From NCBI GenBank assembly GCA_044229315.1, contig JBGATG010000007.1:4903-68902 (forward strand): DNA of 64,000 nucleotides. Reading direction: 5' to 3'. The notes under the pieces are model-generated. The model saw only the letters and a program-made list of their open reading frames with translations, was not told the origin of the DNA and searched no databases. Within the stretch, counting starts at the first letter, position 1. Each line of letters starts with the position of its first letter. The stretch comes from Bacteroidia bacterium. Its GTDB lineage: Bacteria > Bacteroidota > Bacteroidia > B-17B0 > Aurantibacillaceae. A program made the position numbers and the translations under genes. Shown here one piece after another: positions 1 to 13,682 of the stretch.

Positions 1-980
1 ATCGTTAATGAGTGCTTGCCAGCATATATTATTTCTAAGCGACCCTTTAAGTCCCTTAGACCAGTGCCTGTGCCCTCCTTTATTGGTAATTGTTTCTTTT
101 CGTTTTCAATTTCAAATCTAATTGAATCGTTTCTACTCAAGTCAAATATAATATTAATGCTAGACTTTGCTTCGGGTTCAGTTCCGTGCTTAAAGGCATT
201 TTCAACCAAAGAAATAAAAATACCGGGCTCTACCAACTGGTTTTCATTATCGCCATATTGTTCGAAATTAACCTGTACTTCGTTATCAGCATATTTCAGT
301 TGATTTAATTCGATAAAACTTTTAATAAACTCTATTTCCTTGCTAATGGGAACCCTTTCATTCTTGGATTCTTCAATAACATATCGCAATAATTGCGATA
401 ACTTCTGTATGGTTAATGCCAGTTGTGGCGTTTGTTTTTGATCCACCATCGCCAATAAATTGTTTAAAGCATTAAACAAAAAGTGAGGTTGCAGCTGACT
501 TCTCAAAAGGGCCAATTCGGATTGCTTTTTCTCAAGAACAAGCATACTGTTAATCCTGTCATTTTGAATAACCATTCTAATCATAGCGTACATTAGAGTG
601 GCAATGTAGTAAAACAACGTGATCCCAAAACAAAGTACAACAGACACTTTACTTCTGCTTCCGATAGCGCTAAATATCATCCATTCCAGGCCAAAGGCTA
701 GTATAAATGAAATTAAGGTAAGAATAAAAAAACGAAACCTGTTTTGATCGAAAAGTGTTTTTCGCAAAAACAGAAAGCAAACCCAAAACAAAACTGCACA
801 AACGGCAATAATGATCATTAAAGCAGTTTGGACATCTTGATTTCGGGTAATTTTGACGCTTAATTTCCCATTTACTTCAACCTCATCAACGCCCGTTACC
901 GAAAAGCTTTGAACTATAAACCAACCAGTGACTAGCCAAAAGGCAGTCATTCCCAATATTTCAATTAGCCTTTTATTCAT
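1..980 (-). CDS. LytS/YehU-type membrane sensor histidine kinase, 3' end truncated by the window edge
   Basis: Missing from the ORF track because it has no stop in the window. Open from ATG at 980 (MNKRLIEILG...) to the edge. Hydrophobic N-terminal helices, then LLRSQLQPHFLFNALNN, LSQLLRY, LVENAFKHG and GTGTGLK motifs typical of His_kinase (PF06580)/HATPase. Confidence 0.88.
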   Translation of the reverse strand, partial: MNKRLIEILGMTAFWLVTGWFIVQSFSVTGVDEVEVNGKLSVKITRNQDVQTALMIIIAVCAVLFWVCFLFLRKTLFDQNRFRFFILTLISFILAFGLEWMIFSAIGSRSKVSVVLCFGITLFYYIATLMYAMIRMVIQNDRINSMLVLEKKQSELALLRSQLQPHFLFNALNNLLAMVDQKQTPQLALTIQKLSQLLRYVIEESKNERVPISKEIEFIKSFIELNQLKYADNEVQVNFEQYGDNENQLVEPGIFISLVENAFKHGTEPEAKSSINIIFDLSRNDSIRFEIENEKKQLPIKEGTGTGLRDLKGRLEIIYAGKHSLT

Positions 981-984
981 TACT

Positions 985-1051
985 CAAAGCTAGAATATTT
1001 ACATGTAATCTTCTCTTAAATTGGTATAAAACTGCTGAATTATGTTACAAA
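985..1051 (-). promoter_or_regulatory. Putative LytTR-type operator plus -7 box for the kinase gene
   Basis: Minus strand: TTTGTAACA (1051-1043), N12, TTTATACCA (1030-1022), then TAGCTTTG (992-985) matching the Bacteroidota TAnnTTTG element, 4 nt before the ATG. Confidence 0.7.
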
Positions 1052-1058
1052 ATGTGGA

Positions 1059-1123
1059 TTCATAACAAGAAACGGTGGGTTTGTAACATAAATCCTCTAA
1101 CAAGTCTGTTAAAGCTAATTTTG
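1059..1123 (+). promoter_or_regulatory. Putative LytTR-type operator plus -7 box for the first serine hydrolase
   Basis: TTCATAACA (1059-1067), N12, TTTGTAACA (1080-1088), then TAATTTTG (1116-1123). Confidence 0.7.
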
Positions 1124-1149
1124 ATTTACAAATAATTAAGATAGTAGAA

Positions 1150-2652
1150 ATGGTCAATCTAATAAAGTACATCATTTGCGATTTACAATATCAAATAAAA
1201 AAACTCATCTTAGGTATACTACTTTTATTTTCAGCTAATTTGGGACACTCTCAAGGTAAAGAAGCTCAAATTGATTCCATGTTGAGTTTATTTGTGGATC
1301 ACAAACACTTCAATGGTTCTATTCTTGTTGCAGAACATGGATCAGTTGTATATAAAAAAGGCTTTGGCTTCGCAAATATGGAATGGCAAATACCAAATAC
1401 AACGAATACCCGTTTTAAAATTGCTTCATTGGGCAAGCAGTTTACCGCGTTGATGATATTACAGCTTGTTCAGGAAGGAAAACTAGCACTTGAGGGTAAA
1501 ATATGTGATTACATACCGGAATACCCAAAAGAGAGCGGAAAAATAATCACCATTCACCAGTTGCTTACTCACACGTCAGGCATCCCAAACTATCATATTA
1601 TTCCAGATCAGGATGCAAATCAAAACCTTTCATATACACGTGAGGAATACATGGCCCTATTTAGTAGTAAGAAGCTAATGTTTAATCCAGGAACACACTA
1701 TTACTACTCCAACTTAGGGTATTATGTATTGGGATGCATATTGGAAAGGGTTAGTGGAAAATCATATATGCAATTAATAAAAGAAAAAATATTTGAACCT
1801 TCGGGGATGAATAACAGTTGTACCGAAGAAGAGAAATTGGTTATCCCAAATTTGGCTAGCGGTTACGAATTTATCTATTCCGGATATAAACCAGCCAGAC
1901 ATAGAAATTCTTCTCAAGTCTTCGGTGCAGGACATGTAATCACAACAGTGGAAGATTTTTTTAAGTATGACAAGGCATTACATAATAACATTTTACTATC
2001 TGATAAATACCAGAAACTAATAAATACACCTTTTATTAATAATTATGGCTACGGTTGGAATATTGAATATTATCCAAGGTCCAACATTGATTCAGTTACA
2101 TTAGCCAGTCACGATGGGGGCACATACGGATTTTCATCGGTAGCATATCGTTTTATTGAAGATAACAAGCTCATTGTGGCGCTCAGCAATACCTCTCCTT
2201 ATGACATGCACGGTATTGCAAGTTCAATCGGAAGAATCCTTTATGATCGAGAAAAAATATTCCCAAAGAAATCATACGTAGAAAGATTCGCCATTACCCT
2301 AAATGGCTTTGGTGTCGACTCGGCAATTAACCAGTATTATTATCTCAAAAAAAATGAGTCGGAACTATATGAATTGGACGGAGTGGAATTTAACCTTCTT
2401 GGCTATAATTATCTCAGGAACAAACAACTTAAGGAAGCCATGGCAGTCTTTAAAATTAATGTAGAAGCTTTTCCTAATGTTGGAGATCCCTACGACAGCT
2501 TAGCAGAAGCATATATGTTAATGAACGAAAAAGATTTAGCTATTTTGAACTATAATAAGGCCCTCAAACTTGATCCCAATAATTCTAACGCAAAAGTAAT
2601 GCTTAAGAAGCTTCAAGAGAAGGCACCGAAACCACCAACCAAGACCAATTGA
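1150..2652 (+). CDS. Serine hydrolase (AmpC/beta-lactamase-related family) with C-terminal TPR
   Basis: Signal-peptide-like N-terminus, SLGK (SxxK), LLTHTSG, YSN and HDGG motifs; C-terminal TPR (FPNVGDPYDSLAEAY...ALKLDPNN). Confidence 0.88.
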   Translation: MVNLIKYIICDLQYQIKKLILGILLLFSANLGHSQGKEAQIDSMLSLFVDHKHFNGSILVAEHGSVVYKKGFGFANMEWQIPNTTNTRFKIASLGKQFTALMILQLVQEGKLALEGKICDYIPEYPKESGKIITIHQLLTHTSGIPNYHIIPDQDANQNLSYTREEYMALFSSKKLMFNPGTHYYYSNLGYYVLGCILERVSGKSYMQLIKEKIFEPSGMNNSCTEEEKLVIPNLASGYEFIYSGYKPARHRNSSQVFGAGHVITTVEDFFKYDKALHNNILLSDKYQKLINTPFINNYGYGWNIEYYPRSNIDSVTLASHDGGTYGFSSVAYRFIEDNKLIVALSNTSPYDMHGIASSIGRILYDREKIFPKKSYVERFAITLNGFGVDSAINQYYYLKKNESELYELDGVEFNLLGYNYLRNKQLKEAMAVFKINVEAFPNVGDPYDSLAEAYMLMNEKDLAILNYNKALKLDPNNSNAKVMLKKLQEKAPKPPTKTN

Positions 2653-2717
2653 GGTTCAAATCTATCAAAAGTAGCGCCAAATAAATATATGCATTAAAGT
2701 CATATTAACAAGAAATT

Positions 2718-4162
2718 ATGAAGATCATTTTAGTTGCGCTCAATCTTTTATTAATTATTGCACATTCGTGTTCTCAGACATCTTCAGAGCAAAAGCAAGT
2801 ATTCTCTAAGGAAGAACTAAGACTAGACTTCAACATATTTCGTACGTCGTTAGAGGAGGGCCACCCTGCTTTGTACCATTACAAAACAAAGATAACGATG
2901 GATTCAATCTTCAACTCAAACATGGAGTCTATTAAAAGCGTAATGACTGATAGAGAATTTCTAATAATGCTAAGCAAGATTGTAAATCAGATCGGAGATG
3001 GACATTTGCGTGTTATTCTTCCCAAATTCCACAAGGATAAATTGGATATCGGCTCTACCGCTCTCCCGGTTTCACTGATTTACAGAAATAATAATTTATA
3101 TGTAGCTAGAAATCTATCACCTTACCCAGATAACGATTTGATAGGTGCACAAGTAGTTTCAATAAACGACAAAACTGTTTCTGAATTTCTTGTCAAATAT
3201 CTGGAGCTCTTTTCATCAGATGGCTCAAACGTTACTGCTAAATTTAAGCTCTATCGCGATTGCGAATAATTCCTAGATATTATAATATTCTTTATGGCTT
3301 TACGGAACAGTATAAGTTAACGTACATTCCATTTGGTGACGTTACCGCAAAGACCATTAATTTTAAAGGTATAACATACGATGAGTATTTTGAAGTGCTA
3401 TATAAGCGATATCCACCGCGCCCGGCATTGGAATTCATCCTGAAAAAGGATAGCAATTACGCTTATATGAAAATTAAGACCTTTGATAAAGATCAGTTAA
3501 AAGAAGAGAAGGCAAACTATGAGAAGTTTCTGCAAAATTCTTTCACTGCACTTCAAAAGAATAATATTGAAAATTTAGTACTTGATCTACGCGGAAATGG
3601 AGGTGGGACAGATGAATATGGCAAAATTCTCTTTTCCTATTTCACTGAGAAGCCATTTGAATATTACTCATCGATAACCATGAACAAAGAAAGTTTTGAT
3701 TTTTTCAAGTTCACAAGTAATCCCAACATTAAAGCACCAAACGGTATGTTAAAACCTAACACCCAAGGCACGTTTGATAATGTTAAACATCCAAATATTG
3801 GAAGGCAAAAACCTGGTGCACCTATTTTTAAAGGTAAAATTTACGTTCTTATCGACGGGGGTTGTTTTTCTACCACAAGTGAATTTTTATCTGTTCTTCA
3901 TTATAATACCCAGGCTATTTTCGTAGGCGAGGAAAGTGGCGGAGGATATTATGGCAATTGCTCTGGTCCAACGCCTGAGTTTGTTTTGCCTAATACGAAA
4001 GTCAGCGTGGCTATTCCTTTAATGAGATACAATATGGCAGTCGGCGGATACTTGCCGCATGACCGAGGAATAATACCAAACTACATAAAGGAATCCACAA
4101 TACTTGACATCATTGAAAATAACGATGTAGAGTTCAATTTTACAAAAAGTTTGATAAAATAA
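2718..4162 (+). pseudogene. S41-family peptidase (lipoprotein-like) split by a -1 frameshift near 3248-3268
   Basis: ORF 2718-3269 carries the S41 N-terminus (DFNIFRTSLEEGHPALY, GDGHL). ORF 3260-4162 carries LDLRGNGGG, GGCFST and VGEESGGG. They overlap by 10 bp in adjacent frames and join to about 480 aa. True pseudogene versus sequencing indel cannot be distinguished here. Confidence 0.75.
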
Positions 4163-4199
4163 ACTGAGCTAATCTATGATTCTTTTTAGATCCTGCCTG

Positions 4200-4265
4200 T
4201 TCATACCAATTCTATACGGTTTCATACCATTCTTCAGATCATCAGTTTTCTATATTTTAATTTTG
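4200..4265 (+). promoter_or_regulatory. Putative LytTR-type operator plus -7 box for the second transcription unit
   Basis: Perfect direct repeat TTCATACCA (4200-4208, 4221-4229) with a 12-bp spacer, then TAATTTTG (4258-4265) before the GTG at 4271. Confidence 0.72.
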
Positions 4266-4270
4266 CTTTA

Positions 4271-5395
4271 GTGAAATCTCAACTGGCATATTATATTATA
4301 CTACCAATGTACACTTTACTTTCCTGCCAGCAGGAAAGTAACAACAGTCATCAAGGGAAGTCGAATGAATCTGAGAATAAAATACTTGCATTTGTTGCTA
4401 GTCTTGATTCAACACTAAAGTCACATTATTTTAACGGAAGTGTACTCGTTCGAAAGGATGGCAAAACAATAATGAAGAGGAGTTATGGACTCTCAAATGT
4501 TGAGTTAAAAACACCTTTCACCGATTCCACATTTGCATGTATGGGTTCAATAACCAAGCACTTCACAACCATATTGGCCCTAAGATATCTGGATGAAGGA
4601 AAACTTAAATTAACAGACAGCTTAGGCAAGTATTTTCAAAATGTGCCTGATGACAAGAAAGGCATCACAATTCACCACTTGCTTTCTCATAGTTCCGGTT
4701 TGCCCGACTTTTTTGAGAATGATGGTGGAGATTACCTAAATATCGACAAACAAACCTTCCTTAAAAAATTACTCGGGGTAAGATTAAATTATGATCCGGG
4801 TGAAACAGCGGTCTACTCAAACATAGGTATGACGCTTATGGCCGCCATAATAGAAGAAGTATCCGGAGTTGAATTTGAGAGATGCATTACCAATGAACTT
4901 TTCAAGAACAACGGAATTGCGATCTCGTACAGCGATACCACATCGATGCAACAAATTGCTCAGGCATATAGAAACGGCAAACATTGGGGTACACTATTTG
5001 ATCAATACAAAATTAACTCGGGAGGACCGTTTTGGAATCTAATTGGAAATGGTGGCTTATATTGCTCAATTAACGAAATAGAGAAATGGTCAAACTTGAT
5101 TTGGCACAATAAAATTATTTCCCGAGAAACACTAAACTTGATGCATCAGCCAAAGGTAAGCGAACATGGCTCAAATAACGAATCATTCTTTGGTTATGGG
5201 TGTTTGATTGAACCAATTTCTTCGGGTGACACCATCATTAGCAATAATGGCAGTAATCAGGCTTATTACGCAACTTATAAGCGAATACCTACAAAGCAAA
5301 TAGAATTTTTCCTGATCACAAATCATTTCAGTAAGGGAATGATGGCAACTTATGAAGAACTGGCTTCAACTGCAGTAATGAGTTTAACAAAATGA
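4271..5395 (+). CDS. Serine hydrolase (beta-lactamase-related family), lipoprotein
   Basis: Lipobox-like LLSC, SITK (SxxK), LLSHSSG and YSN motifs. Confidence 0.87.
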   Translation: MKSQLAYYIILPMYTLLSCQQESNNSHQGKSNESENKILAFVASLDSTLKSHYFNGSVLVRKDGKTIMKRSYGLSNVELKTPFTDSTFACMGSITKHFTTILALRYLDEGKLKLTDSLGKYFQNVPDDKKGITIHHLLSHSSGLPDFFENDGGDYLNIDKQTFLKKLLGVRLNYDPGETAVYSNIGMTLMAAIIEEVSGVEFERCITNELFKNNGIAISYSDTTSMQQIAQAYRNGKHWGTLFDQYKINSGGPFWNLIGNGGLYCSINEIEKWSNLIWHNKIISRETLNLMHQPKVSEHGSNNESFFGYGCLIEPISSGDTIISNNGSNQAYYATYKRIPTKQIEFFLITNHFSKGMMATYEELASTAVMSLTK

Positions 5396-6810
5396 GATCT
5401 CATATCATTTTAATTTTGATACTAGTTGTTTTAAATCCGTTGAATTCCAGTGGTCAACTCGGCGATTCTATCAGCTCCAAAATTGACTCGTTACTTCATC
5501 AATTAGAAAAAGATGATGTCTTTTCGGGTAGTGTTCTTATTGGATATAATGGCTCCATCGTGTATTCAAAACATCTAGGGTATTCAACTAAAGAAAAACA
5601 CCTAAGGAATACTTCAAACACAAAATTTTACATCGGTTCGATTACAAAACTGTATACTAAAATTTTGATTTATCAACTCGTTGAAGAGAAAAAAATTAAG
5701 TTAAATGACAAGGTAGCTAAATACCTCAGCGGATTCAATAAAAACGTAGCTAATCATGTTACAGTGCAACACCTTCTAAATCATACCTCGGGCCTTGGTC
5801 AATACTACGATCATCCCGAATTTGAAAGCAGAAAAAAGAACATCTCATCAATAGATGACATTCTCTACTTTGTTAAAACGGAAGAGTTAATGTTTAAACC
5901 CGGTACTGAAGTAGAATATTCAAATTCGGGTTATGTTGTACTAGGTGCTATTATTGAAAAGGTGACCAATTTAACTTATGGAGAGGCTTTAAAGTCATAT
6001 ATCTTTCAAAAGATCGACGCTCGTAATTCATCGTATTCTATAATTAATACAGCAATGGATTCAACCGCCCAGGGTTACCTCACCAACCTATTAACAGGGG
6101 CTACAAATGCAGATCTTTTTCTCACCGGTGCTTCAGATGGTGGTATCATCACCACCGCTTACGACTTATTCAAACTCGACTCCGCCATCTTCCAAAGTGA
6201 TATTGTTCTAAATGAGAAAAGTAGGCTTCAGATTTTTAACCAGCGGGGAAACAATGAGCTAATTGCAACTTCTAAAAATGTGAAATTTGCAATTGCCGGA
6301 GGCGATCCAGGTTTAAGCACAATATACTCACGCAATATAGTGAAAGGATATACAATCATTGTGTTAAGCAACTATGATGAACCCGTTTCCGCTGAGGTTC
6401 TAAGGTCAGTCGTTAATATACTAAACGGAAATGCCCCTTCCAAGGTCATAGGTTCCATTGCTCGCCATTTAAGGAAATACATGAACGAACACGGAGGTGC
6501 AAGTTTTAAAACCTATTTGGATCAGAATATAGATGATCAACTCGTTGCGTTAAGGCAAAATGATATGCCTTTACTCTACTTAGGGAAATACCTAATCGAA
6601 AATGAAAGGCTATTTGATGCGCAATGTTTGTACGAAATATACACGAAGCACTTTCCAAAAATTGTTATTGCTTGGGAAGAACTGGCTTTGGTGTATACGC
6701 AACTCAACAAAACAAGTGATGCTAACTTCATTTATTTAAAACTTCAGGAACGTTTTCCTGAAAACGAAGAATACCGTCAAAATATAATAAAACCAAAAAC
6801 CAAAAATTAA
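5392..6810 (+). CDS. Serine hydrolase (beta-lactamase-related family) with C-terminal TPR-like region
   Basis: ATGA overlap with the previous gene, signal peptide, SITK, LLNHTSG, YSN; helical TPR-like tail. Confidence 0.87.
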   Translation: MRSHIILILILVVLNPLNSSGQLGDSISSKIDSLLHQLEKDDVFSGSVLIGYNGSIVYSKHLGYSTKEKHLRNTSNTKFYIGSITKLYTKILIYQLVEEKKIKLNDKVAKYLSGFNKNVANHVTVQHLLNHTSGLGQYYDHPEFESRKKNISSIDDILYFVKTEELMFKPGTEVEYSNSGYVVLGAIIEKVTNLTYGEALKSYIFQKIDARNSSYSIINTAMDSTAQGYLTNLLTGATNADLFLTGASDGGIITTAYDLFKLDSAIFQSDIVLNEKSRLQIFNQRGNNELIATSKNVKFAIAGGDPGLSTIYSRNIVKGYTIIVLSNYDEPVSAEVLRSVVNILNGNAPSKVIGSIARHLRKYMNEHGGASFKTYLDQNIDDQLVALRQNDMPLLYLGKYLIENERLFDAQCLYEIYTKHFPKIVIAWEELALVYTQLNKTSDANFIYLKLQERFPENEEYRQNIIKPKTKN

Positions 6811-6834
6811 ACCAAAAATTAAACCAAAAATTAT
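6792..6834 (+). repeat. 12-bp tandem repeat ACCAAAAATTAA x3 plus a partial copy
   Basis: Copies at 6799-6810, 6811-6822 and 6823-6834 (the last ends AT, the start of the next ATG); partial ACCAAAA at 6792-6798. Confidence 0.85.
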
Positions 6835-7264
6835 GAAAACAAAATTCATTAAAAGTCTTATTCTAGCACTGCTAGTTTTCAATTCGAACTCAATTTTTAG
6901 TCAAACTAAGTTCGTTACTCAAGAGGCGAATTTCATTTATGACTATGTTAAGTCAAAAGGTTCGGCCACTTTTGATAAAGAATTTGAGAAAACCTTTAAA
7001 GAAAAAGGCTTTGTTATTGATGATGACATGATATTCATTAACGTAGCAGAGGCTTTAAAAGAGGAGAAACTTGCTAATGAAGCAATTTCGGTATTTAAGG
7101 TTGGCACTAAGCATTTCCCTAAGATTATCATGTTGTGGAACGGCCTTGGCGAAGCTTATCTCATAAATCAAAATAAAAAGGACGCTAAGATATGCTTTGA
7201 AAAAGTACTTAAACTTAAACCGGGTAACCCCCGTGCACAAGAAGGGTTGAAAAAATGCGAGTAA
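6833..7264 (+). CDS. Exported tetratricopeptide-repeat protein
   Basis: Signal peptide followed by TPR (LWNGLGEAY...FEKVLKLKPGNPRA). Confidence 0.8.
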   Translation: MKTKFIKSLILALLVFNSNSIFSQTKFVTQEANFIYDYVKSKGSATFDKEFEKTFKEKGFVIDDDMIFINVAEALKEEKLANEAISVFKVGTKHFPKIIMLWNGLGEAYLINQNKKDAKICFEKVLKLKPGNPRAQEGLKKCE

Positions 7265-7326
7265 GCGTTCGATTATTTATTACGGCGATTATTTTTAGTT
7301 CTAAAGTAATTCACAGAGTAGTAAGA

Positions 7327-9498
7327 ATGAGTTTGTCGCTTGGACTTTGTTTGATATATTTATTAGCCTCCTGCAATTCTAATTCAAACGACAAAGATTC
7401 ACTATGCAGTAGCGGCAATCCTGGTGATCTTATGTTAAATTCAACTACACCTTCTGGATTAGTTTTTGAAACATTTTATCTGAAGCTCAGTACTGGCATA
7501 TTATGCACTTTGCTTTTTAGTTCAATAACATTAGTTCTCAAAGAAAATGCTTGGAAAAAGTTGCTTGCATTACCAATTTACGGGGCTTCAATGTTCGCTA
7601 ATTTATTCGTAAACAATACGCCAATTAACTCCTTCGGCAATATAGGCAAGTTTCATTATGAACTACCAAAAACTGAATGGAGGAAGGATTTAGAATATTT
7701 AAAAGTAGAGTTGCCTAAGCATCATCCTAATCTTTTTATGTATATGGAGAAGGATGAATTTTTGAGTGCAATTCAGCACCTGGAGGAAAGATTAAGCTTA
7801 CTTGATGATCAGCAAATAACTTTTGAAATATGTCGAATTGTATCTATGATCAAAGATGGCCACACGCAAATTGTATCAATACCGTTTGGAACTCCTCCTT
7901 TTGTCAACAGTCAATTATATCCGTTACGAGTATACTTCTTTGCAGATGGATTGTATGTGATAGATGGTGGACGAGATCATAAGGACTTGGTAGGGAAGAG
8001 AATCGATAAAATTGACAAAACACCAATCAAAGAGGTTGTAGAACGAATTAGTCAGTATGCACCTGGCGAAAACTCTTTCTACAAGATGCAATGGTCTTTC
8101 CCATACCTACTCAATGCCTCTTTGCTAGAGCATTTAAAAATTGCTAACAGTGTTAACGAGATTCAACTTACTTTAAGCGACGTATCAGGAGTTCAAGTAT
8201 CAAAAACTTTAAAGCCTTTTCATTCCACTCTTTATCTTAAATGGTATGAAGAAACAAAGGACTTGGATGATTTGTCAAGAAAAGGCAAACTAGAGAAAAA
8301 CTATTGGTATAAATATAATGAAGCAACCAACGATCTATACTTTCAGATCAATCAGGTTAAAGATCAACCTGGCGAAAAATCTATAAAGGAATTCGCATCG
8401 GAACTTACACAAATTATTAAAGAACGCGAAATTAATAAGCTAATTATCGATGCAAGAAATTGTAATGGTGGAGACAATACTTTAGTACACTACTTAATTG
8501 ATGCTATATCCGCCTCTGAAAAAGTAAATAAGTATGGTAAATTGTTTACCCTAATTGGAAGAAATACATTTTCAGGCGGCGTCTCATTTGTTTCCGCAAT
8601 TGAAAGAAATACTCCAGTGATCTTTGTTGGAGAACCTTCAGGAAGCGGGCCAAATCAATGTGGAGATGTTCAAACATTTACATTGCCGCATTCTCAACTT
8701 CGTTTAAAAGTATCTTCCAAATTTCATCAGCAGAGCCACTATAAAGACAATAGATTACAAATCACTCCCCATATCCGGGTAAATTACGACTACAATTCTT
8801 GGAAGAATAACATTGATCCTGCTATACTGACTGTCCTGTCATTCACCGACCAAATTCAAAAGCGTGACACTTTAAAGCTACCTTTTTACAAACCATATCT
8901 TGGTACATATAACTTTGATACGGAAAAGATCTTAAAAATTAGCAGTAGTAATTCTAGATTAGTATTTACAATTAGCGATTATCAAGTTTTCTCAAACGGT
9001 GATCTCTTCAGTTTAGGAACTGATTCTTTTATTGGTAACAACGGAAGTGTTAAGTTGAGATTCACTAATTGCAAAGATAGTTTCTTTCAGAGTATAATTA
9101 TCAATTATGGTAATGCGGTTGACACACTTCATAGACTACCAACTGACTTCCAATTACCATATCAATTATTGGCGCTGGCGAGGTTAAATGAAGTTTCTAA
9201 GATTTATCGCAAAGCAATTTCATATGGTATTACATTGCCTGCTTCAACTGAAGAACTAATAAATTATTACGCGTACAAATTTATGGTGGATAAAAATATC
9301 GATAGAGCTATGCTTCTATTCAGACTTAATACTGAACTCTTTCCTTTCTCGGCAAATGCTTGGGACAGGCTAGCCGAAGCCTGTCTAACAAACGGCCTTA
9401 AGGAGGAAGCAAAACTAAATTACCAGAAGGCATTGAGCATTGATCCGGATTATGGTAAAGCTATGCATGCGAAGTCAATAATTGAAAAAATAAAATAG
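7327..9498 (+). CDS. S41-family peptidase with N-terminal hydrophobic segments and C-terminal TPR
   Basis: WRKDLEYLKVELPKHHPNLF, IKDGHT, IIDARNCNGGD, GRNTFSG and VGEPSGS motifs; TPR tail. Start moved from 7255 to the ATG at 7327 (LLASC lipobox-like); start uncertain. Confidence 0.82.
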   Translation: MSLSLGLCLIYLLASCNSNSNDKDSLCSSGNPGDLMLNSTTPSGLVFETFYLKLSTGILCTLLFSSITLVLKENAWKKLLALPIYGASMFANLFVNNTPINSFGNIGKFHYELPKTEWRKDLEYLKVELPKHHPNLFMYMEKDEFLSAIQHLEERLSLLDDQQITFEICRIVSMIKDGHTQIVSIPFGTPPFVNSQLYPLRVYFFADGLYVIDGGRDHKDLVGKRIDKIDKTPIKEVVERISQYAPGENSFYKMQWSFPYLLNASLLEHLKIANSVNEIQLTLSDVSGVQVSKTLKPFHSTLYLKWYEETKDLDDLSRKGKLEKNYWYKYNEATNDLYFQINQVKDQPGEKSIKEFASELTQIIKEREINKLIIDARNCNGGDNTLVHYLIDAISASEKVNKYGKLFTLIGRNTFSGGVSFVSAIERNTPVIFVGEPSGSGPNQCGDVQTFTLPHSQLRLKVSSKFHQQSHYKDNRLQITPHIRVNYDYNSWKNNIDPAILTVLSFTDQIQKRDTLKLPFYKPYLGTYNFDTEKILKISSSNSRLVFTISDYQVFSNGDLFSLGTDSFIGNNGSVKLRFTNCKDSFFQSIIINYGNAVDTLHRLPTDFQLPYQLLALARLNEVSKIYRKAISYGITLPASTEELINYYAYKFMVDKNIDRAMLLFRLNTELFPFSANAWDRLAEACLTNGLKEEAKLNYQKALSIDPDYGKAMHAKSIIEKIK

Positions 9499-9551
9499 TT
9501 CGATAATTAAATTAGAGATCTGAATCCATAATACTTTAAAAGAAATAAACT

Positions 9552-10754
9552 ATGAAATACACAAAAACAATCTTGGTAGGTGCATTTTTACTCTTTGTAA
9601 AGCTCATCAATGCACAATGGATAACCCAGACTAGCGGCACAACCGAAACCCTTTTGGGCATTTCTGGTGTCAGCCCATACAATGCTTATGCTGTCGGAAC
9701 AAACGGCACGATTAAGCACACCAACAACGCCGGTACAACTTGGGTCAGTCAAGCCAGTGGGACAACAAGTTTTTTAAGAGATATATTCTTCTCTGATTCG
9801 CTCAATGGGTGCGTTGTTGGCCAAATGGGTTTAGTATTAACTACAACCAATACGGGAACAACATGGTCGAATAATGCAAGCGGAACAATTGAACACCTTG
9901 TGCATGTTCATTTTGCAAATTCCTCTATCGGTATGGCAGGTGGTCAGAACGGTGTACTCATAAAAACCAATAATTCTGGCGTAAACTGGTCTACAATGAC
10001 AAGTGGCGTTAGTGTTGAGCTTGCGGGAATTTACATGTGCAACAGCAATATAGCCTATGCTGTTGGATTCAATGGAACAATATTGAAAACAATAAATGGT
10101 GGTATTACCTGGACACCACAAACAAGTGGTACCTCCAACGATTTAAGAAGCGTGGCATTTGTTGGATTAGATACTGGTGTTGTGGTGGGCATTAATGGTA
10201 CAATTCTCAGAACAACGGATGGTGGAACAAATTGGCAAACCTTAACAAGTGGCGTGTCATCAAATCTTTATGGAATTGAGATGATTAGCACTTTCACTAA
10301 TAATGCAGCCGGTACCGGAAAAATACTTAGAAGTATCAATAGCGGAACAACATGGCCGCAACAAGCCATTGGTACTTATACAAATGATCTGTACGATATT
10401 GATTTTGTCAATAATACTGTTGGTTGGGCTGTTGGTCAAATTGGTAAGATATTTTATACGAGTAATGGAGGAATTGCAACTCGTATTAACGATGAAGAGG
10501 CTATGGATAATATCCTTAAGGTTTATCCTAATCCCACCGGTGGGATTGTTTATATAGTCGAAGAAAAGGAATGTTTGCCAACTTCTTATGAAGTGACCGA
10601 TTGCACAGGTACACTATTCTATAAAGGGACACTTCTTGCAGATCAGCATTGCATAGATATCTGTTCAATACCTCAAGGAATATATTTACTAAAAGTTCTT
10701 TATAAGTATAGGCCCCCAAGAACCTGTAAGGTGATAGTTCAACAGAAAGATTGA
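9552..10754 (+). CDS. YCF48/BNR-like beta-propeller protein with T9SS C-terminal sorting domain
   Basis: Repeated VG.NGTILKT.NGG.TW..QTSG units; C-terminal VYPNP...GIYLLKV. Confidence 0.85.
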   Translation: MKYTKTILVGAFLLFVKLINAQWITQTSGTTETLLGISGVSPYNAYAVGTNGTIKHTNNAGTTWVSQASGTTSFLRDIFFSDSLNGCVVGQMGLVLTTTNTGTTWSNNASGTIEHLVHVHFANSSIGMAGGQNGVLIKTNNSGVNWSTMTSGVSVELAGIYMCNSNIAYAVGFNGTILKTINGGITWTPQTSGTSNDLRSVAFVGLDTGVVVGINGTILRTTDGGTNWQTLTSGVSSNLYGIEMISTFTNNAAGTGKILRSINSGTTWPQQAIGTYTNDLYDIDFVNNTVGWAVGQIGKIFYTSNGGIATRINDEEAMDNILKVYPNPTGGIVYIVEEKECLPTSYEVTDCTGTLFYKGTLLADQHCIDICSIPQGIYLLKVLYKYRPPRTCKVIVQQKD

Positions 10755-10978
10755 TACAACCCAATAATTATAGCTTTTTTTGAATAAAGTTTTGAACTTT
10801 ATTGGAATTCCTTAGATTTTAAGCCTCGCTACCGCCCAGGCATACCTGGCAAAGTCTTCCAAGGCTAATAGGTCTTTCTCGAGTCGGTTCAGGATTGCCA
10901 TTCTTTGTGCTATATTTGTGTCTGAGGGGCACAAAGATCGGGTAAATGTCGTCGCAAATGATGATATTTTGCCTACCA

Positions 10979-11006
10979 AAAAAACCTCAGGATACTGGGG
11001 TTTTTT
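10979..11006. terminator. Bidirectional intrinsic-terminator-like hairpin
   Basis: AAAAAACCTCAG-GATA-CTGGGGTTTTTT. Confidence 0.65.
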
Positions 11007-11012
11007 CATTTC

Positions 11013-11288
11013 ATGGAATTTGTTGTCTACATAATGTATTCAAATAGTAGTAAGCGTAATTATACTGGTTACACGTCTAATCTGATAGAGCGATTTCGTT
11101 CACATAATATTTACGGAAAAGATAGTACAAGACTTTACAGACCTTGGACAGTAGTGCATGTTGAATTTTTTCGAACCAAAGAAGAGGCGATGAAACGAGA
11201 AAAGTACTTTAAGGCCGGGCGTGGATCAATTTTGAAGAATTCAATTGTCTCTGAATTCATGGCTCGTTGGGCTCATACCCTTCCCTAA
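11013..11288 (+). CDS. Small stand-alone GIY-YIG nuclease family protein
   Basis: VYIMYS...YTGYT...RFRSHN...EAMKREK (GIY-YIG, Arg and Glu motifs). The C-terminal ARWAHT is translated tRNA sequence. Confidence 0.85.
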   Translation: MEFVVYIMYSNSSKRNYTGYTSNLIERFRSHNIYGKDSTRLYRPWTVVHVEFFRTKEEAMKREKYFKAGRGSILKNSIVSEFMARWAHTLP

Positions 11289-11326
11289 AGGGAAGGGCGG
11301 AAGTTCGAATCTTCCTCCCGCTACCA
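11262..11326 (+). pseudogene. 3' fragment of tRNA-fMet (CAT) with an inserted hairpin
   Basis: GCTCGTTGGG-CTCATA-CCC (GGG/CCC initiator anticodon stem), insert TTCCCTAAAGGGAA, perfect T-arm GGAAG-TTCGAAT-CTTCC, acceptor 3' strand TCCCGCT-A-CCA. No D-arm or 5' acceptor strand upstream. Confidence 0.8.
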
Positions 11327-11354
11327 AAAAAACCACCTGAAATGGTGGTTTTTT
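11327..11354 (+). terminator. Intrinsic terminator after the tRNA fragment
   Basis: AAAAAACCACC-TGAAAT-GGTGGTTTTTT. Confidence 0.7.
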
Positions 11355-11468
11355 ATTTTGTTTTCGGTCATCTACTCATTCCTACTAAACACTCGCTCAG
11401 TTCCCCGGAATTAAATTTGGTTTGGATACGTCGTAAAAAGTACTTTCATACACGTAAAACTTTATGTT

Positions 11469-13682
11469 ATGAAATTATCCTCTTCTTCGATCTCAAAAAT
11501 AACGTTGGCACTCTGTTTGATCCTCGCCGGTTTTACCGCGAAGGCCCAAGTGACAAAAACATTCACGATCATTCCATTTGCAGATACAAACAATAACTGC
11601 GTTTATGATTTTGGTGAAGACACGCTTGTGAGTTTCAAGATACAAGCGGTAGATCCCATGAATTTTTATGGAACCGCCGGAGTAACAAATGCAAATGGAA
11701 GACTAGCTCTTTCATTACCGGTTCCTGCCGCAAGTAATAGTTATTCAATCGCGCTGCTATCCGGGCTTATAGAACCTTGTGCGGTTTCTGCAGCAACAGC
11801 CGTTCCATACTATTCATTATATTATCTGCCTATCAAACCTGTGATCCTAAATGCGCCGGTAGGTTATGGAAGTACTTTTTTTTGGGGACAAACTGCACAA
11901 GGCAAACTTTTCAAATATGCCCCAATGGACACGCTAAGGAATTGTAGCGCTCCTCTTTATTCCGGAAACTTCAATTGTTTTTTTGAGTTACATAACAATG
12001 TGAATTCAATGCCGGGGTTTTATACCGGTACAATGACAGTTAAATTGGATGCGGCAACGGTTGATACTTACTCTTTCGGTTTTGTCAACACATCAACCTC
12101 ATTCACTTCGGCAAGTTCAACAGGCACGATATTGTCAAATCAAAATGATCAAGCTCTAATGGTCATGTATAATTTGCCGAATACTCTGGTAACCGCGGGT
12201 ATCCACACATTGTCGGTGATCTTTACACCATTTACAGGATATTCACAAAATTCAGTAATGAATATAATATTGAGCGCTGATAGTTGCGGAAGCATAAATG
12301 GTCAAGCGTACATGGACTGTAATAATAACTGCGCGTTTGATGCCTGGGAAACCTATGGAGGCAACAACATTAGCGCCGTGGTTGTTACGAATGCCACAAA
12401 TACGCTTTCCTGTTATCCGAGCGCAAATGGTTCTTATAATTTAAGCGCGCCGGTTGGAATTTATACGGTTACTGCAGTTGGAACAAATAGCAGCTATTCA
12501 GTTTGCCCGGTTACTTCATTCACAACAAATATTTCTTATCTTTCTTCTTACACCTTGAATTATGGTGTACAAGAACTTAATCCAAATTCGGTTGATTACA
12601 AAACATTCTTAAACATGAGCGGAGCAAATCCTGGTCCGGGTGCTGTGCCGGGTGGAACCTTGGCGATCAATGCATACAACATTAAAACCGGTGGTCCATT
12701 ATGTACAGTGAATCCAACTTTAGTTCCAACTGCTTTAAAAATCGTGTTGCCAATTGAAATGACCTATTCATATGTTATCGGTACAACGCCGCTTCCTTCG
12801 TCGGTTATTCCATGCGCAACAGGGGATACTATTGTTTGGAATTATCCGGGGGCAAACGCCTTGCATCAAATTGGAGTGTTCACTGCAACTAACGCTACTA
12901 TTGGAAATTCTTATTGCATTAAAAGCATTGTGAATCCACAAAACGATAATGACCCAAGCAATAACATTTATACACGATGTACCACATTTGGTGGACCTTT
13001 TGATCCAAACGAGAAAACTGCGGAGGCGCTGAACATGTTCCCTAACGGAAATATCTTGCCGGGCACACAGGATATTACTTACACTATTGAATTCCAAAAT
13101 TTGGGCAACGGTCAAGCTGTGAATATAAATATCAACGATACTATTAGTTCTTATTTGGATCTTTCTTCACTACAGGTGATCTCGTCAAGTTTCCCGGTTC
13201 AAACAATTGTGAATGCCGGTACCAGAGTTGTTGATTTTAAATTCAAAGGAATTAATTTACCTGCTTCAAGTGTTAACGAGCCTGCCAGTCATGGCTACGT
13301 GAGATATAAGCTCAACTTAAATCCAAGTTTACCTTTGGGCACAAGTATTAAGAACAGAGCGCACATCTATTTTGATTATAATTCAGCGGTGTCAACTAAC
13401 CAAACTATAAATACAATAGCTTTAACTACCGGCATCAATCAAAATGCATTAAATAGCATGGTGATCATGTATCCTAACCCTACAAAAGATAATGTGAATA
13501 TTAATTCTTCAGTTATTATTTCGAGAATTGAGGTGATGAATTTAGTAGGCCAGGTGATCACGGCGAAAGATGTAAATTCCTTTAATACGAATATTGATCT
13601 TAGCATGTTGAATAAAGGAGTGTATTTGGTTCAGATGCATACAGCATCCGGCCCGATCATTAAAAAACTGGTAAAAGAGTAG
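11469..13682 (+). CDS. T9SS-secreted surface protein with DUF7619/DUF11-like domain
   Basis: Signal peptide; PFDPNEK...YTIEFQNLG...HGYVRYK...RAHIYFDYN; C-terminal MYPNP...GVYLVQ...IKKLVKE sorting domain. Confidence 0.85.
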   Translation: MKLSSSSISKITLALCLILAGFTAKAQVTKTFTIIPFADTNNNCVYDFGEDTLVSFKIQAVDPMNFYGTAGVTNANGRLALSLPVPAASNSYSIALLSGLIEPCAVSAATAVPYYSLYYLPIKPVILNAPVGYGSTFFWGQTAQGKLFKYAPMDTLRNCSAPLYSGNFNCFFELHNNVNSMPGFYTGTMTVKLDAATVDTYSFGFVNTSTSFTSASSTGTILSNQNDQALMVMYNLPNTLVTAGIHTLSVIFTPFTGYSQNSVMNIILSADSCGSINGQAYMDCNNNCAFDAWETYGGNNISAVVVTNATNTLSCYPSANGSYNLSAPVGIYTVTAVGTNSSYSVCPVTSFTTNISYLSSYTLNYGVQELNPNSVDYKTFLNMSGANPGPGAVPGGTLAINAYNIKTGGPLCTVNPTLVPTALKIVLPIEMTYSYVIGTTPLPSSVIPCATGDTIVWNYPGANALHQIGVFTATNATIGNSYCIKSIVNPQNDNDPSNNIYTRCTTFGGPFDPNEKTAEALNMFPNGNILPGTQDITYTIEFQNLGNGQAVNININDTISSYLDLSSLQVISSSFPVQTIVNAGTRVVDFKFKGINLPASSVNEPASHGYVRYKLNLNPSLPLGTSIKNRAHIYFDYNSAVSTNQTINTIALTTGINQNALNSMVIMYPNPTKDNVNINSSVIISRIEVMNLVGQVITAKDVNSFNTNIDLSMLNKGVYLVQMHTASGPIIKKLVKE

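What the first reader, a model, noticed from the sequence alone, without database searches (positions are those of the whole stretch)
985..4265. Three promoters share a 9-bp/N12/9-bp operator at fixed distance from the -7 box: a readable LytTR-type regulon with autoregulation
Seen: direct-repeat pairs with a 21-bp period and consensus TTYRTAMCA occur at 1051/1030 (minus strand, kinase gene), 1059/1080 (plus, first hydrolase) and 4200/4221 (plus, second unit). Each is followed 29, 27 and 28 bp later by a TAnnTTTG box. The 1043 and 1080 copies also form a perfect 11-bp inverted repeat across the divergent promoter. Established: LytTR domains bind 9-bp direct repeats separated by about 12 bp, and LytS/YehU kinases pair with LytTR regulators. 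Inference: a LytTR regulator, probably just beyond the left edge, activates its own kinase and both peptidase units.
Basis: partly seen in the sequence, partly recalled or inferred. Interest (0 to 1): 0.8.

Follow-up and report, generated by a model that had tools for sequence, protein, structure and literature searches.

The report
LytTR regulator binding sites, three promoters
Three promoters at this locus carry the same paired DNA repeat, very likely the binding site of the LytTR regulator encoded next door, which would switch on its own sensor operon and two sets of exported peptidase genes; this is a solid but conventional regulon that had not been described.

Summary
TTYRTAMCA-N12-TTYRTAMCA occurs at 1051-1022(-), 1059-1088(+) and 4200-4229(+). 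Each pair lies 29, 27 or 28 nt upstream of a Bacteroidetes -7 box. These are the only three exact matches in the 4.0-Mb genome, where about 0.03 are expected.

The predicted regulator exists. A 223-aa REC-LytTR gene lies just left of the window and overlaps the kinase stop codon by 4 nt.

Thirteen loci from other genomes and metagenomes encode regulators 50-76% identical to this one. All carry the same repeat pair at the same distance from a -7 box in front of the kinase (or regulator) gene. Spacers and flanks are not conserved. In 11 of 12 informative loci the kinase-regulator operon is divergent from a PF00144 (S12-type) serine hydrolase gene, and 9 of 11 have a second operator facing that gene.

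Best reading (about 0.85): the phosphorylated regulator binds as a tandem dimer at about -70 to -40 and activates promoters that lack a -33 element. This gives positive autoregulation plus induction of exported S12 and S41 peptidases. The kinase mRNA is probably leaderless.

The signal and the enzymes' substrates are unknown. I rate it a new member of a known kind, of moderate interest.

The parts
3..980 (-). Sensor histidine kinase, 342 aa. The gene runs on to window -48. It has four N-terminal hydrophobic segments, H-box PHFLFN (H166), N-box ENAFKH and G-box GTGTGL. The REC-LytTR regulator follows at window -716..-45, outside the window.
985..992 (-). -7 box TAGCTTTG of the kinase-regulator promoter. 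The ATG at 980 starts 4 nt after it, so a leaderless mRNA is predicted.
   Evidence: box position -12..-5 from PMC9723704
1022..1051 (-). Operator O-hk: TTTGTAACA (1051-1043), N12, TTTATACCA (1030-1022). It lies 29 nt upstream of the -7 box.
   Evidence: conserved in 13 orthologous loci
1059..1088 (+). Operator O-1: TTCATAACA, N12, TTTGTAACA. It sits back to back with O-hk (7 bp apart) and 27 nt upstream of the -7 box.
   Evidence: an equivalent operator faces the hydrolase gene in 9 of 11 loci
1116..1123 (+). -7 box TAATTTTG of promoter P1. The predicted start site is about 1128, giving a 22-nt leader.
1150..2652 (+). Exported PF00144 (S12-type) serine hydrolase with a C-terminal TPR. Motifs present: SxxK at S93, YSN at 186, HDG at 321.
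2718..4162 (+). S41 peptidase gene split by a frameshift near 3251 into ORFs 2718-3269 and 3260-4162. The 76%-regulator locus L026 has it intact.
4200..4229 (+). Operator O-2: TTCATACCA, N12, TTCATACCA. It lies 28 nt upstream of the -7 box.
   Evidence: conserved in L026 before the orthologous PF00144 gene
4258..4265 (+). -7 box TAATTTTG of promoter P2. The predicted start site is about 4270, 1 nt before the GTG at 4271.
4271..9498 (+). Second unit: PF00144 lipoprotein (4271-5395), PF00144 (5392-6810), TPR protein (6833-7264) and S41+TPR peptidase (7255-9498). The genes are tightly packed or overlapping, and no terminator-like site was found between them on the plus strand except a weak one at 6863-6875.

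Best explanation
The three repeat pairs are operators of the REC-LytTR response regulator encoded directly downstream of the kinase. An unknown envelope or peptide signal is sensed by the 4-TM kinase, which phosphorylates the regulator at Asp53. The regulator then binds as a tandem (head-to-tail) dimer to the two 9-bp half-sites. These are 21 bp apart, about two helical turns, so both lie on the same face of the DNA. With the -7 box at -12..-5, the half-sites lie at about -71..-63 and -50..-40. None of the promoters has a -33 TTG element, so the bound dimer probably recruits RNA polymerase and activates transcription. The outputs are (i) the kinase-regulator operon itself, giving positive feedback through a probably leaderless mRNA, (ii) the divergent S12-TPR and S41 peptidase unit, and (iii) the second S12/S12/TPR/S41-TPR unit. 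Shown here: the sites, their uniqueness in the genome, the adjacent regulator, and their conservation across orthologous loci. Inferred: binding, direction of regulation, start sites, the signal, and the enzymes' substrates.
For: (1) The sites are exact and unique in the genome: 3 observed against about 0.03 expected, and they are the top three PWM hits. No credible weaker site was found elsewhere. (2) The REC-LytTR gene is translationally coupled to the kinase. Pfam REC and LytTR score above cut-off. D7, D8, D53, T77/T78 and K98 are invariant in 38 orthologs. The AlphaFold model (pLDDT 87) best matches full-length ComE, 4cbv, at E 1e-14. (3) Phylogenetic footprint: 13 of 13 loci with regulators 50-76% identical carry a pair 27-29 nt upstream of a TAnnTT[TG][GA] box before the kinase or regulator gene. 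Twelve of these pairs have at most 2 mismatches; the Polaribacter one has 3. The background rate of pairs with at most 2 mismatches is 3.1e-6 per position, or about 0.0016 per intergenic region. Information content is 1.0-1.1 bit per column in the half-sites, 0.29 in the spacer and about 0.2 in the flanks. (4) The kinase-regulator operon is divergent from a PF00144 gene in 11 of 12 informative loci. A significant operator faces that gene in 9 of 11. (5) The genome has about 13 PF06580 kinases and about 17 LytTR-like regulators, yet the motif occurs only at this one system. (6) The 9-N12-9 layout and autoregulation match ComE and AgrA (PMC4005675, PMC4227749).
Against: The consensus was derived from the same sites it is scored on, although the cross-locus test is independent of that. 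The regulator ortholog is rare: 2 of 400 genomes of the class and none of 60 close relatives. Conservation therefore rests mostly on metagenome contigs. One target gene, the first S41 peptidase, is frameshifted. Activation rather than repression is inferred only from operator position and the missing -33 element.
Confidence: 0.85

Rival explanations
1. The sites are real operators, but the regulator represses these promoters, or both represses and activates them, and phosphorylation relieves the repression.
For: Nothing in the sequence fixes the sign of regulation. The two back-to-back operators, only 7 bp apart, could form a higher-order complex that closes the divergent promoter.
Against: The operators lie wholly upstream of the core promoter, at about -71 to -40, and do not overlap the -7 box or start site. 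No promoter has a -33 TTG at the right spacing, which is typical of activator-dependent promoters. Characterised LytTR regulators with this layout (AgrA, ComE) activate.
Confidence: 0.08
2. The repeats are bound by a different protein: another of the roughly 17 LytTR-like regulators of the genome (for example the second kinase-LytTR pair 2-4 kb to the left) or a regulator of another family.
For: The genome holds many paralogous systems. A second kinase-LytTR pair lies at C2:1042-2815. The 50-76% regulator relatives are sparse among reference genomes.
Against: In 13 other loci the motif travels with this regulator's relatives, and none of those loci has the second pair. In Runella the kinase and regulator genes are separated, yet each keeps its own site. 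The 21-bp period of 9-bp direct repeats fits LytTR domains, not winged-helix or HTH dimers.
Confidence: 0.05
3. The repeats are chance matches or leftovers of a duplication of the promoter region, with no regulatory role.
For: P1 and P2 both precede PF00144 genes, so a segmental duplication could have copied a promoter.
Against: About 0.03 matches are expected by chance and 3 are seen. Only the half-sites and -7 boxes are shared between the three promoters; spacers and flanks differ. The same architecture recurs in 13 loci whose proteins are only 38-76% identical.
Confidence: 0.02

Closest known systems
Staphylococcus aureus AgrA at the divergent agr P2/P3 promoters
   Same: A REC-LytTR regulator binds as a dimer to pairs of direct repeats in a divergent intergenic region. 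One promoter drives its own operon, including the kinase (positive feedback). The other drives the output (PMC4227749).
   Different: The kinase here has a PF06580 core, not AgrC-type, and I noticed no candidate autoinducer-peptide or AgrB-like gene next to it. The promoters are of the Bacteroidetes sigma-A type (-7 box TAnnTTTG). The outputs are exported peptidases, not a regulatory RNA. The half-site sequence also differs.
Streptococcus pneumoniae ComE (comCDE, comAB, comX promoters)
   Same: Two imperfect 9-bp direct repeats are separated by a 12-nt linker upstream of several promoters, including the regulator's own operon (PMC4005675). ComE is the best structural match of the modelled regulator.
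   Different: Sequence identity is only 21-23%. ComE has a different kinase family and a peptide pheromone signal. It belongs to a different phylum with different promoter elements.
Escherichia coli BtsS/BtsR (YehU/YehT) and YpdA/YpdB
   Same: The kinase has the same catalytic family (PF06580) and is paired with a LytTR regulator. BtsR is the best NCBIfam hit of the regulator, over residues 1-211. The regulons are small and local, recognised through conserved direct-repeat motifs (PMC5552118).
   Different: The BtsR score is 100.6 against a cut-off of 246, so this is not an ortholog. The kinase lacks the 5TMR_LYT and GAF sensor. The E. coli systems target carbon-starvation and pyruvate transporter genes, not peptidases. 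From my own knowledge, their repeat spacers are 13 and 11 bp rather than 12.
Staphylococcus aureus / Bacillus LytSR
   Same: A LytS-family kinase with a LytTR regulator is linked to cell-wall hydrolase biology. The receiver domain resembles that of S. aureus LytR (6m8o).
   Different: LytSR controls the holin/antiholin-like lrgAB genes, not S12/S41 peptidases. The sensor domain also differs.

Membership tests
LytTR-family response regulator (REC + LytTR) | C-terminal LytTR DNA-binding domain (PF04397) | tested here: met
   PF04397 at E 2.9e-16, 59.9 bits against a cut-off of 22.6, residues 135-220
LytTR-family response regulator (REC + LytTR) | Receiver domain with acidic pocket, phospho-acceptor Asp, Thr and Lys | tested here: met
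   PF00072 at E 1.5e-21. D7, D8, D53, T77/T78 and K98 are invariant in 38 orthologs.
LytTR-family response regulator (REC + LytTR) | Fold like solved REC-LytTR proteins | tested here: met
   The AlphaFold2 model has pLDDT 87.2. The top five Foldseek hits are chains of full-length ComE, 4cbv, at E about 1e-14 over about 245 columns.
LytTR-family response regulator (REC + LytTR) | Target promoters carry two roughly 9-bp direct repeats about 12 bp apart, bound by the protein | tested here: inconclusive
   The cis-elements are present, unique in the genome and conserved. Physical binding cannot be tested with these tools.
LytS/YehU(BtsS)/YpdA-type sensor kinase | PF06580 His_kinase dimerisation/phospho-acceptor domain with H-box, plus an ATPase N-box and G-box | tested here: met
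   PF06580 at E 3.8e-22, residues 155-232. PHFLFN at 165, ENAFKH at 260 and GTGTGL at 303.
LytS/YehU(BtsS)/YpdA-type sensor kinase | N-terminal 5TMR_LYT membrane sensor and GAF domain | tested here: not met
   No Pfam hit other than PF06580 at E up to 0.01. There are only four hydrophobic segments in residues 5-138 and the protein is 342 aa.
Agr/Com/Blp-type peptide quorum-sensing cassette | AgrC/ComD-type kinase, a precursor-peptide gene and a processing or export gene in the locus | tested here: not met
   The kinase is PF06580. Neighbouring genes in the window and in 13 related loci are peptidases and hydrolases, and no processing or export gene recurs next to the kinase. Small peptide genes were not searched for.
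Class C (AmpC) beta-lactamase | Score above the NCBIfam bla_class_C cut-off | tested here: not met
   The three PF00144 proteins score 61.6-74 bits against a cut-off of 415. Their nearest solved relatives are S12 peptidases: Pab87 (2qmi), alkaline D-peptidase (4y7p) and R61 DD-peptidase.
PF00144 / MEROPS S12-type serine hydrolase | PF00144 domain with SxxK and YxN catalytic motifs | tested here: met
   PF00144 at E 7e-58, 7e-44 and 1e-48. SxxK and YSN are present in all three proteins.
Bacteroidetes sigma-A promoter | -7 box TAnnTTTG at -12..-5, and a -33 TTG element | tested here: inconclusive
   All three -7 boxes match perfectly (box position from PMC9723704). No TTG lies at a suitable distance upstream, which fits activator dependence. 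Start sites are not mapped.

The most novel reading that the evidence does not exclude
This locus would be one copy of an undescribed, horizontally spreading sense-and-degrade module of Bacteroidota and Ignavibacteria. A small 4-TM LytS-core kinase would detect a cell-wall-derived or D-amino-acid-containing peptide, or a beta-lactam or peptide antibiotic, in the envelope. Through its LytTR partner it would induce exported S12-TPR peptidases together with a variable second peptidase (S41, M23, trypsin-like or PD40). That would make it an inducible system for peptide or antibiotic destruction, or for lysing other bacteria, with a self-amplifying leaderless sensor operon.
Probability: 0.2. Interest if true: 0.7.

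Novelty: new member of a known kind. Interest (0 to 1): 0.45.

Why it matters
My four searches of the paper library found no study that describes a LytTR operator in Bacteroidota. Here the regulator, its operator and its whole regulon of three promoters can be read directly from the sequence. The layout is confirmed by comparison across 13 other loci. This gives a ready-made test system of defined half-sites, spacing and promoter geometry. It also links a sporadically distributed kinase-regulator pair to a conserved S12-TPR peptidase partner, which suggests where to look for the unknown signal. The conserved 4-5 nt gap between the -7 box and the start codon predicts a leaderless, self-amplifying sensor operon. 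Leaderless mRNAs are uncommon in flavobacteria, about 5.5% of mRNAs in F. psychrophilum (PMC9723704). The mechanism itself, a LytTR tandem dimer on 9-N12-9 repeats with autoregulation, is textbook.

Tried and rejected
(1) A search for the exact paired pattern in 60 relatives gave 9 hits outside this genome. Most lie inside coding regions and none is next to a LytTR system, so I treated them as chance matches. One is a 9.6-copy 21-bp tandem array (L009) that looks unrelated.

(2) The 60 closest genomes have no ortholog of the regulator. The best intact match is 39% identical, apart from one decaying copy. Footprinting within the genus was therefore impossible, and I used metagenome orthologs instead.

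(3) The search for related loci with the kinase returned only one 28% relative.

(4) My phylum-wide pattern scan used a mistyped reverse complement, TKGTAYRAA instead of TGKTAYRAA. It is uninformative and should be ignored.

(5) I looked for further regulon members at 1-4 mismatches with a -7 box at the right distance. There were 4 and 8 hits at 3 and 4 mismatches against about 1.7 and 5.6 expected. Nearly all lie inside long ORFs, so I rejected them.

(6) The second kinase-LytTR pair left of the window has no comparable repeats upstream.

(7) Rfam found nothing in 1-12000.

(9) NCBIfam gave no equivalog-level name for any protein of the locus.
Full report
**Observation.**
- Minus strand: TTTGTAACA (1051-1043) and TTTATACCA (1030-1022).
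- Plus strand: TTCATAACA (1059-1067) and TTTGTAACA (1080-1088); TTCATACCA (4200-4208) and TTCATACCA (4221-4229).
- Each pair has a 12-nt spacer, so the period is 21 bp.
- Each pair is followed after 29, 27 or 28 nt by TAGCTTTG (992-985, minus), TAATTTTG (1116-1123) or TAATTTTG (4258-4265).
- The 11-bp inverted repeat 1041-1051 / 1080-1090 is exact. It follows from two divergent operators that both contain TTTGTAACA.

The window holds 3 matches at up to 1 mismatch against 0.03 expected, and 0 of 100 shuffles reached 3. In the whole 4.01-Mb assembly the exact paired pattern occurs only at these three places and only with spacer 12. There are 458 single half-sites, so about 0.03 pairs are expected. 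A PWM scan ranks the three sites first genome-wide.

**The regulator.** The window is C2:4903-68902 of its assembly. In the 4.9 kb to the left, the kinase ORF continues to 342 aa. A 223-aa ORF follows it directly, overlapping in ATGA. That ORF has a receiver domain (PF00072, E 1.5e-21) and a LytTR domain (PF04397, E 2.9e-16), both above Pfam's cut-offs. D7, D8, D53, T77/T78 and K98 are invariant among 38 orthologs. An AlphaFold2 model (pLDDT 87) finds full-length ComE (4cbv) as its five best structural matches.

The kinase has the PF06580 core with H-box PHFLFN, N-box ENAFKH and G-box GTGTGL. It has only four hydrophobic segments and no 5TMR_LYT or GAF domain. It therefore shares the catalytic core of LytS/YehU kinases but not their sensor.

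**Specificity within the genome.** The genome has about 13 PF06580 kinases and about 17 LytTR-like regulators, but the motif is found only at this system. At 3-4 mismatches with a -7 box at the right distance there are 4 and 8 hits against about 1.7 and 5.6 expected. Almost all lie inside long ORFs. The regulon therefore appears to be local, with three promoters.

**Comparative evidence.** None of 60 close relatives has an ortholog of the regulator; the best intact match is 39% identical. Only 2 of 400 genomes of the class have one at 50% identity or more. The large protein collection holds one relative at 76% and many at 50-57%.

I examined 13 loci:
- Seven are metagenome or MAG contigs (L026-L032).
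- Two come from reference genomes (L037, L038).
- One is a decaying copy in a same-genus genome, with a truncated kinase and stops in the regulator (L039).
- Three are named records: Runella sp., a Polaribacter MAG and a Melioribacteraceae MAG (L040-L042).

In 11 of 12 informative loci the kinase-regulator operon is divergent from a PF00144 gene, usually with a C-terminal TPR. A variable second peptidase or beta-propeller protein often follows it: S41, M23, trypsin-like or PD40.

All 13 loci carry a TTYRTAMCA-like pair with a 12-nt spacer, 27-29 nt upstream of a TAnnTT[TG][GA] box, in front of the kinase gene. In Runella the kinase and regulator genes are separated and each has its own site. 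Pairs with at most 2 mismatches occur at 3.1e-6 per position in this genome, or about 0.0016 per intergenic region. Twelve of the 13 loci meet that threshold; the Polaribacter site has 3 mismatches, all in one half.

In the 11 aligned kinase promoters, information content is 1.0-1.1 bit per column in the half-sites, 0.29 in the spacer and about 0.2 in the flanks. T1, T2, T5, C8 and A9 are nearly invariant. A significant operator (pair score 12 or more; background 5e-6 per position) faces the PF00144 gene in 9 of 11 loci. In the 76% locus L026 all three operators are conserved, including the one before the orthologous second PF00144 gene.

**Promoter geometry.** In flavobacteria the sigma-A box TAnnTTTG occupies -12 to -5 (PMC9723704). 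That places the proximal half-site at about -50 to -40 and the distal one at about -71 to -63. None of the promoters has a TTG at the usual -33 position. This arrangement is typical of activator-dependent promoters.

The kinase start codon lies 4-5 nt after the box here and in most orthologous loci. The predicted +1 is therefore the A of the ATG, giving a leaderless mRNA. The second unit starts 5 nt after its box (GTG at 4271; ATG 6 nt after the box in L026). P1 has a leader of about 22 nt.

**Targets.**
- The three PF00144 proteins have signal or lipoprotein leaders and intact SxxK and YSN motifs.
- Their nearest solved relatives are S12 peptidases: Pab87, alkaline D-peptidase and R61 DD-peptidase.
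- They score far below NCBIfam's class C beta-lactamase cut-off.
- The first S41 gene is split by a frameshift near 3251, whereas the L026 ortholog is intact.
- The second unit ends with an S41-TPR protein.

**Mechanism and rivals.** The best-supported reading is a LytTR tandem dimer that activates three promoters, with positive autoregulation (confidence about 0.85).
- Repression is unlikely, because the operators lie upstream of the core promoter.
- Binding by another regulator is unlikely, because the motif travels with this regulator's relatives through 13 loci and is absent from the other LytTR systems of the genome.
- Chance or a promoter duplication is excluded by the statistics and by the unconserved spacers.

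**Comparison with known systems.** The layout is that of ComE, with 9-bp repeats, a 12-nt linker and an autoregulated comCDE (PMC4005675). It also matches AgrA at the divergent P2/P3 promoters (PMC4227749). The kinase core is that of BtsS/YpdA (PMC5552118).

This system differs in several ways:
- It is in a different phylum with a different promoter type.
- The sensor is a small 4-TM domain.
- No quorum-sensing processing or export gene recurs next to the kinase.
- The outputs are exported peptidases.
- The kinase mRNA is probably leaderless.

Four library searches found no description of a LytTR operator in Bacteroidota. That agrees in kind but is not independent evidence. My regulator shares no look-alike stretch with any noted window.

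**Limits.** No binding, start-site or expression data exist. My scan used a mistyped pattern and should be disregarded.

Noticed in passing
window 2718-4162 (junction near 3251): The first S41 peptidase gene is split into 183-aa and 300-aa ORFs by a single frameshift. The ortholog in L026 is intact and collinear. No homopolymer lies at the junction, so this could be a real pseudogene or an assembly error.
   Followed up: partly
left of the window, C2:1042-2815 (window -3860..-2087): A second PF06580 kinase and LytTR regulator pair lies on the plus strand, with the regulator 33% identical to this one. No comparable 21-bp-period repeats lie upstream of it.
   Followed up: partly
L039 (G029:C25:1-9000), about 1634-3600: A same-genus genome holds a decaying copy of the module. 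The kinase lacks its first 60 residues and the regulator has two TAA stops and a frame change. Both operators and the PF00144 gene are still recognisable.
   Followed up: partly
window 980-992 and 4258-4273; L026, L027, L028, L030, L032, L038: The start codon lies only 4-5 nt after the -7 box in most kinase genes of this family. This predicts leaderless mRNAs, which are a minority class in flavobacteria (5.5% in F. psychrophilum, PMC9723704).
   Followed up: partly
L026 7684-8931: A tyrosine integrase gene (Phage_integrase, Arm-DNA-bind_5) lies directly after the regulator in the closest locus. Together with the sporadic distribution (2 of 400 genomes), this hints that the module moves horizontally.
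   Followed up: no
L040 (Runella sp.) 51-5172: The kinase and regulator genes are separated by an FtsX/ABC transporter pair on the opposite strand. The regulator gene has a full operator pair. The kinase gene, at the edge of the fetched DNA, shows the proximal half-site and a -7 box.
   Followed up: partly
L009 (G049:C15) 1477-1678: A 21-bp unit (CCTTGGTATACATGCGTGAAA) is repeated 9.6 times in tandem and contains a half-site-like TGTATACCA. It lies next to a 332-aa ORF with no Pfam hit. It looks more like a replication-origin iteron array than a LytTR operator.
   Followed up: partly
window 9552-10754 and 11469-13682: Downstream of the second unit lie two proteins with type IX secretion C-terminal sorting domains. 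One has a BNR/YCF48-like propeller and the other has DUF7619. It is unclear whether the first is co-transcribed with the peptidase unit.
   Followed up: no
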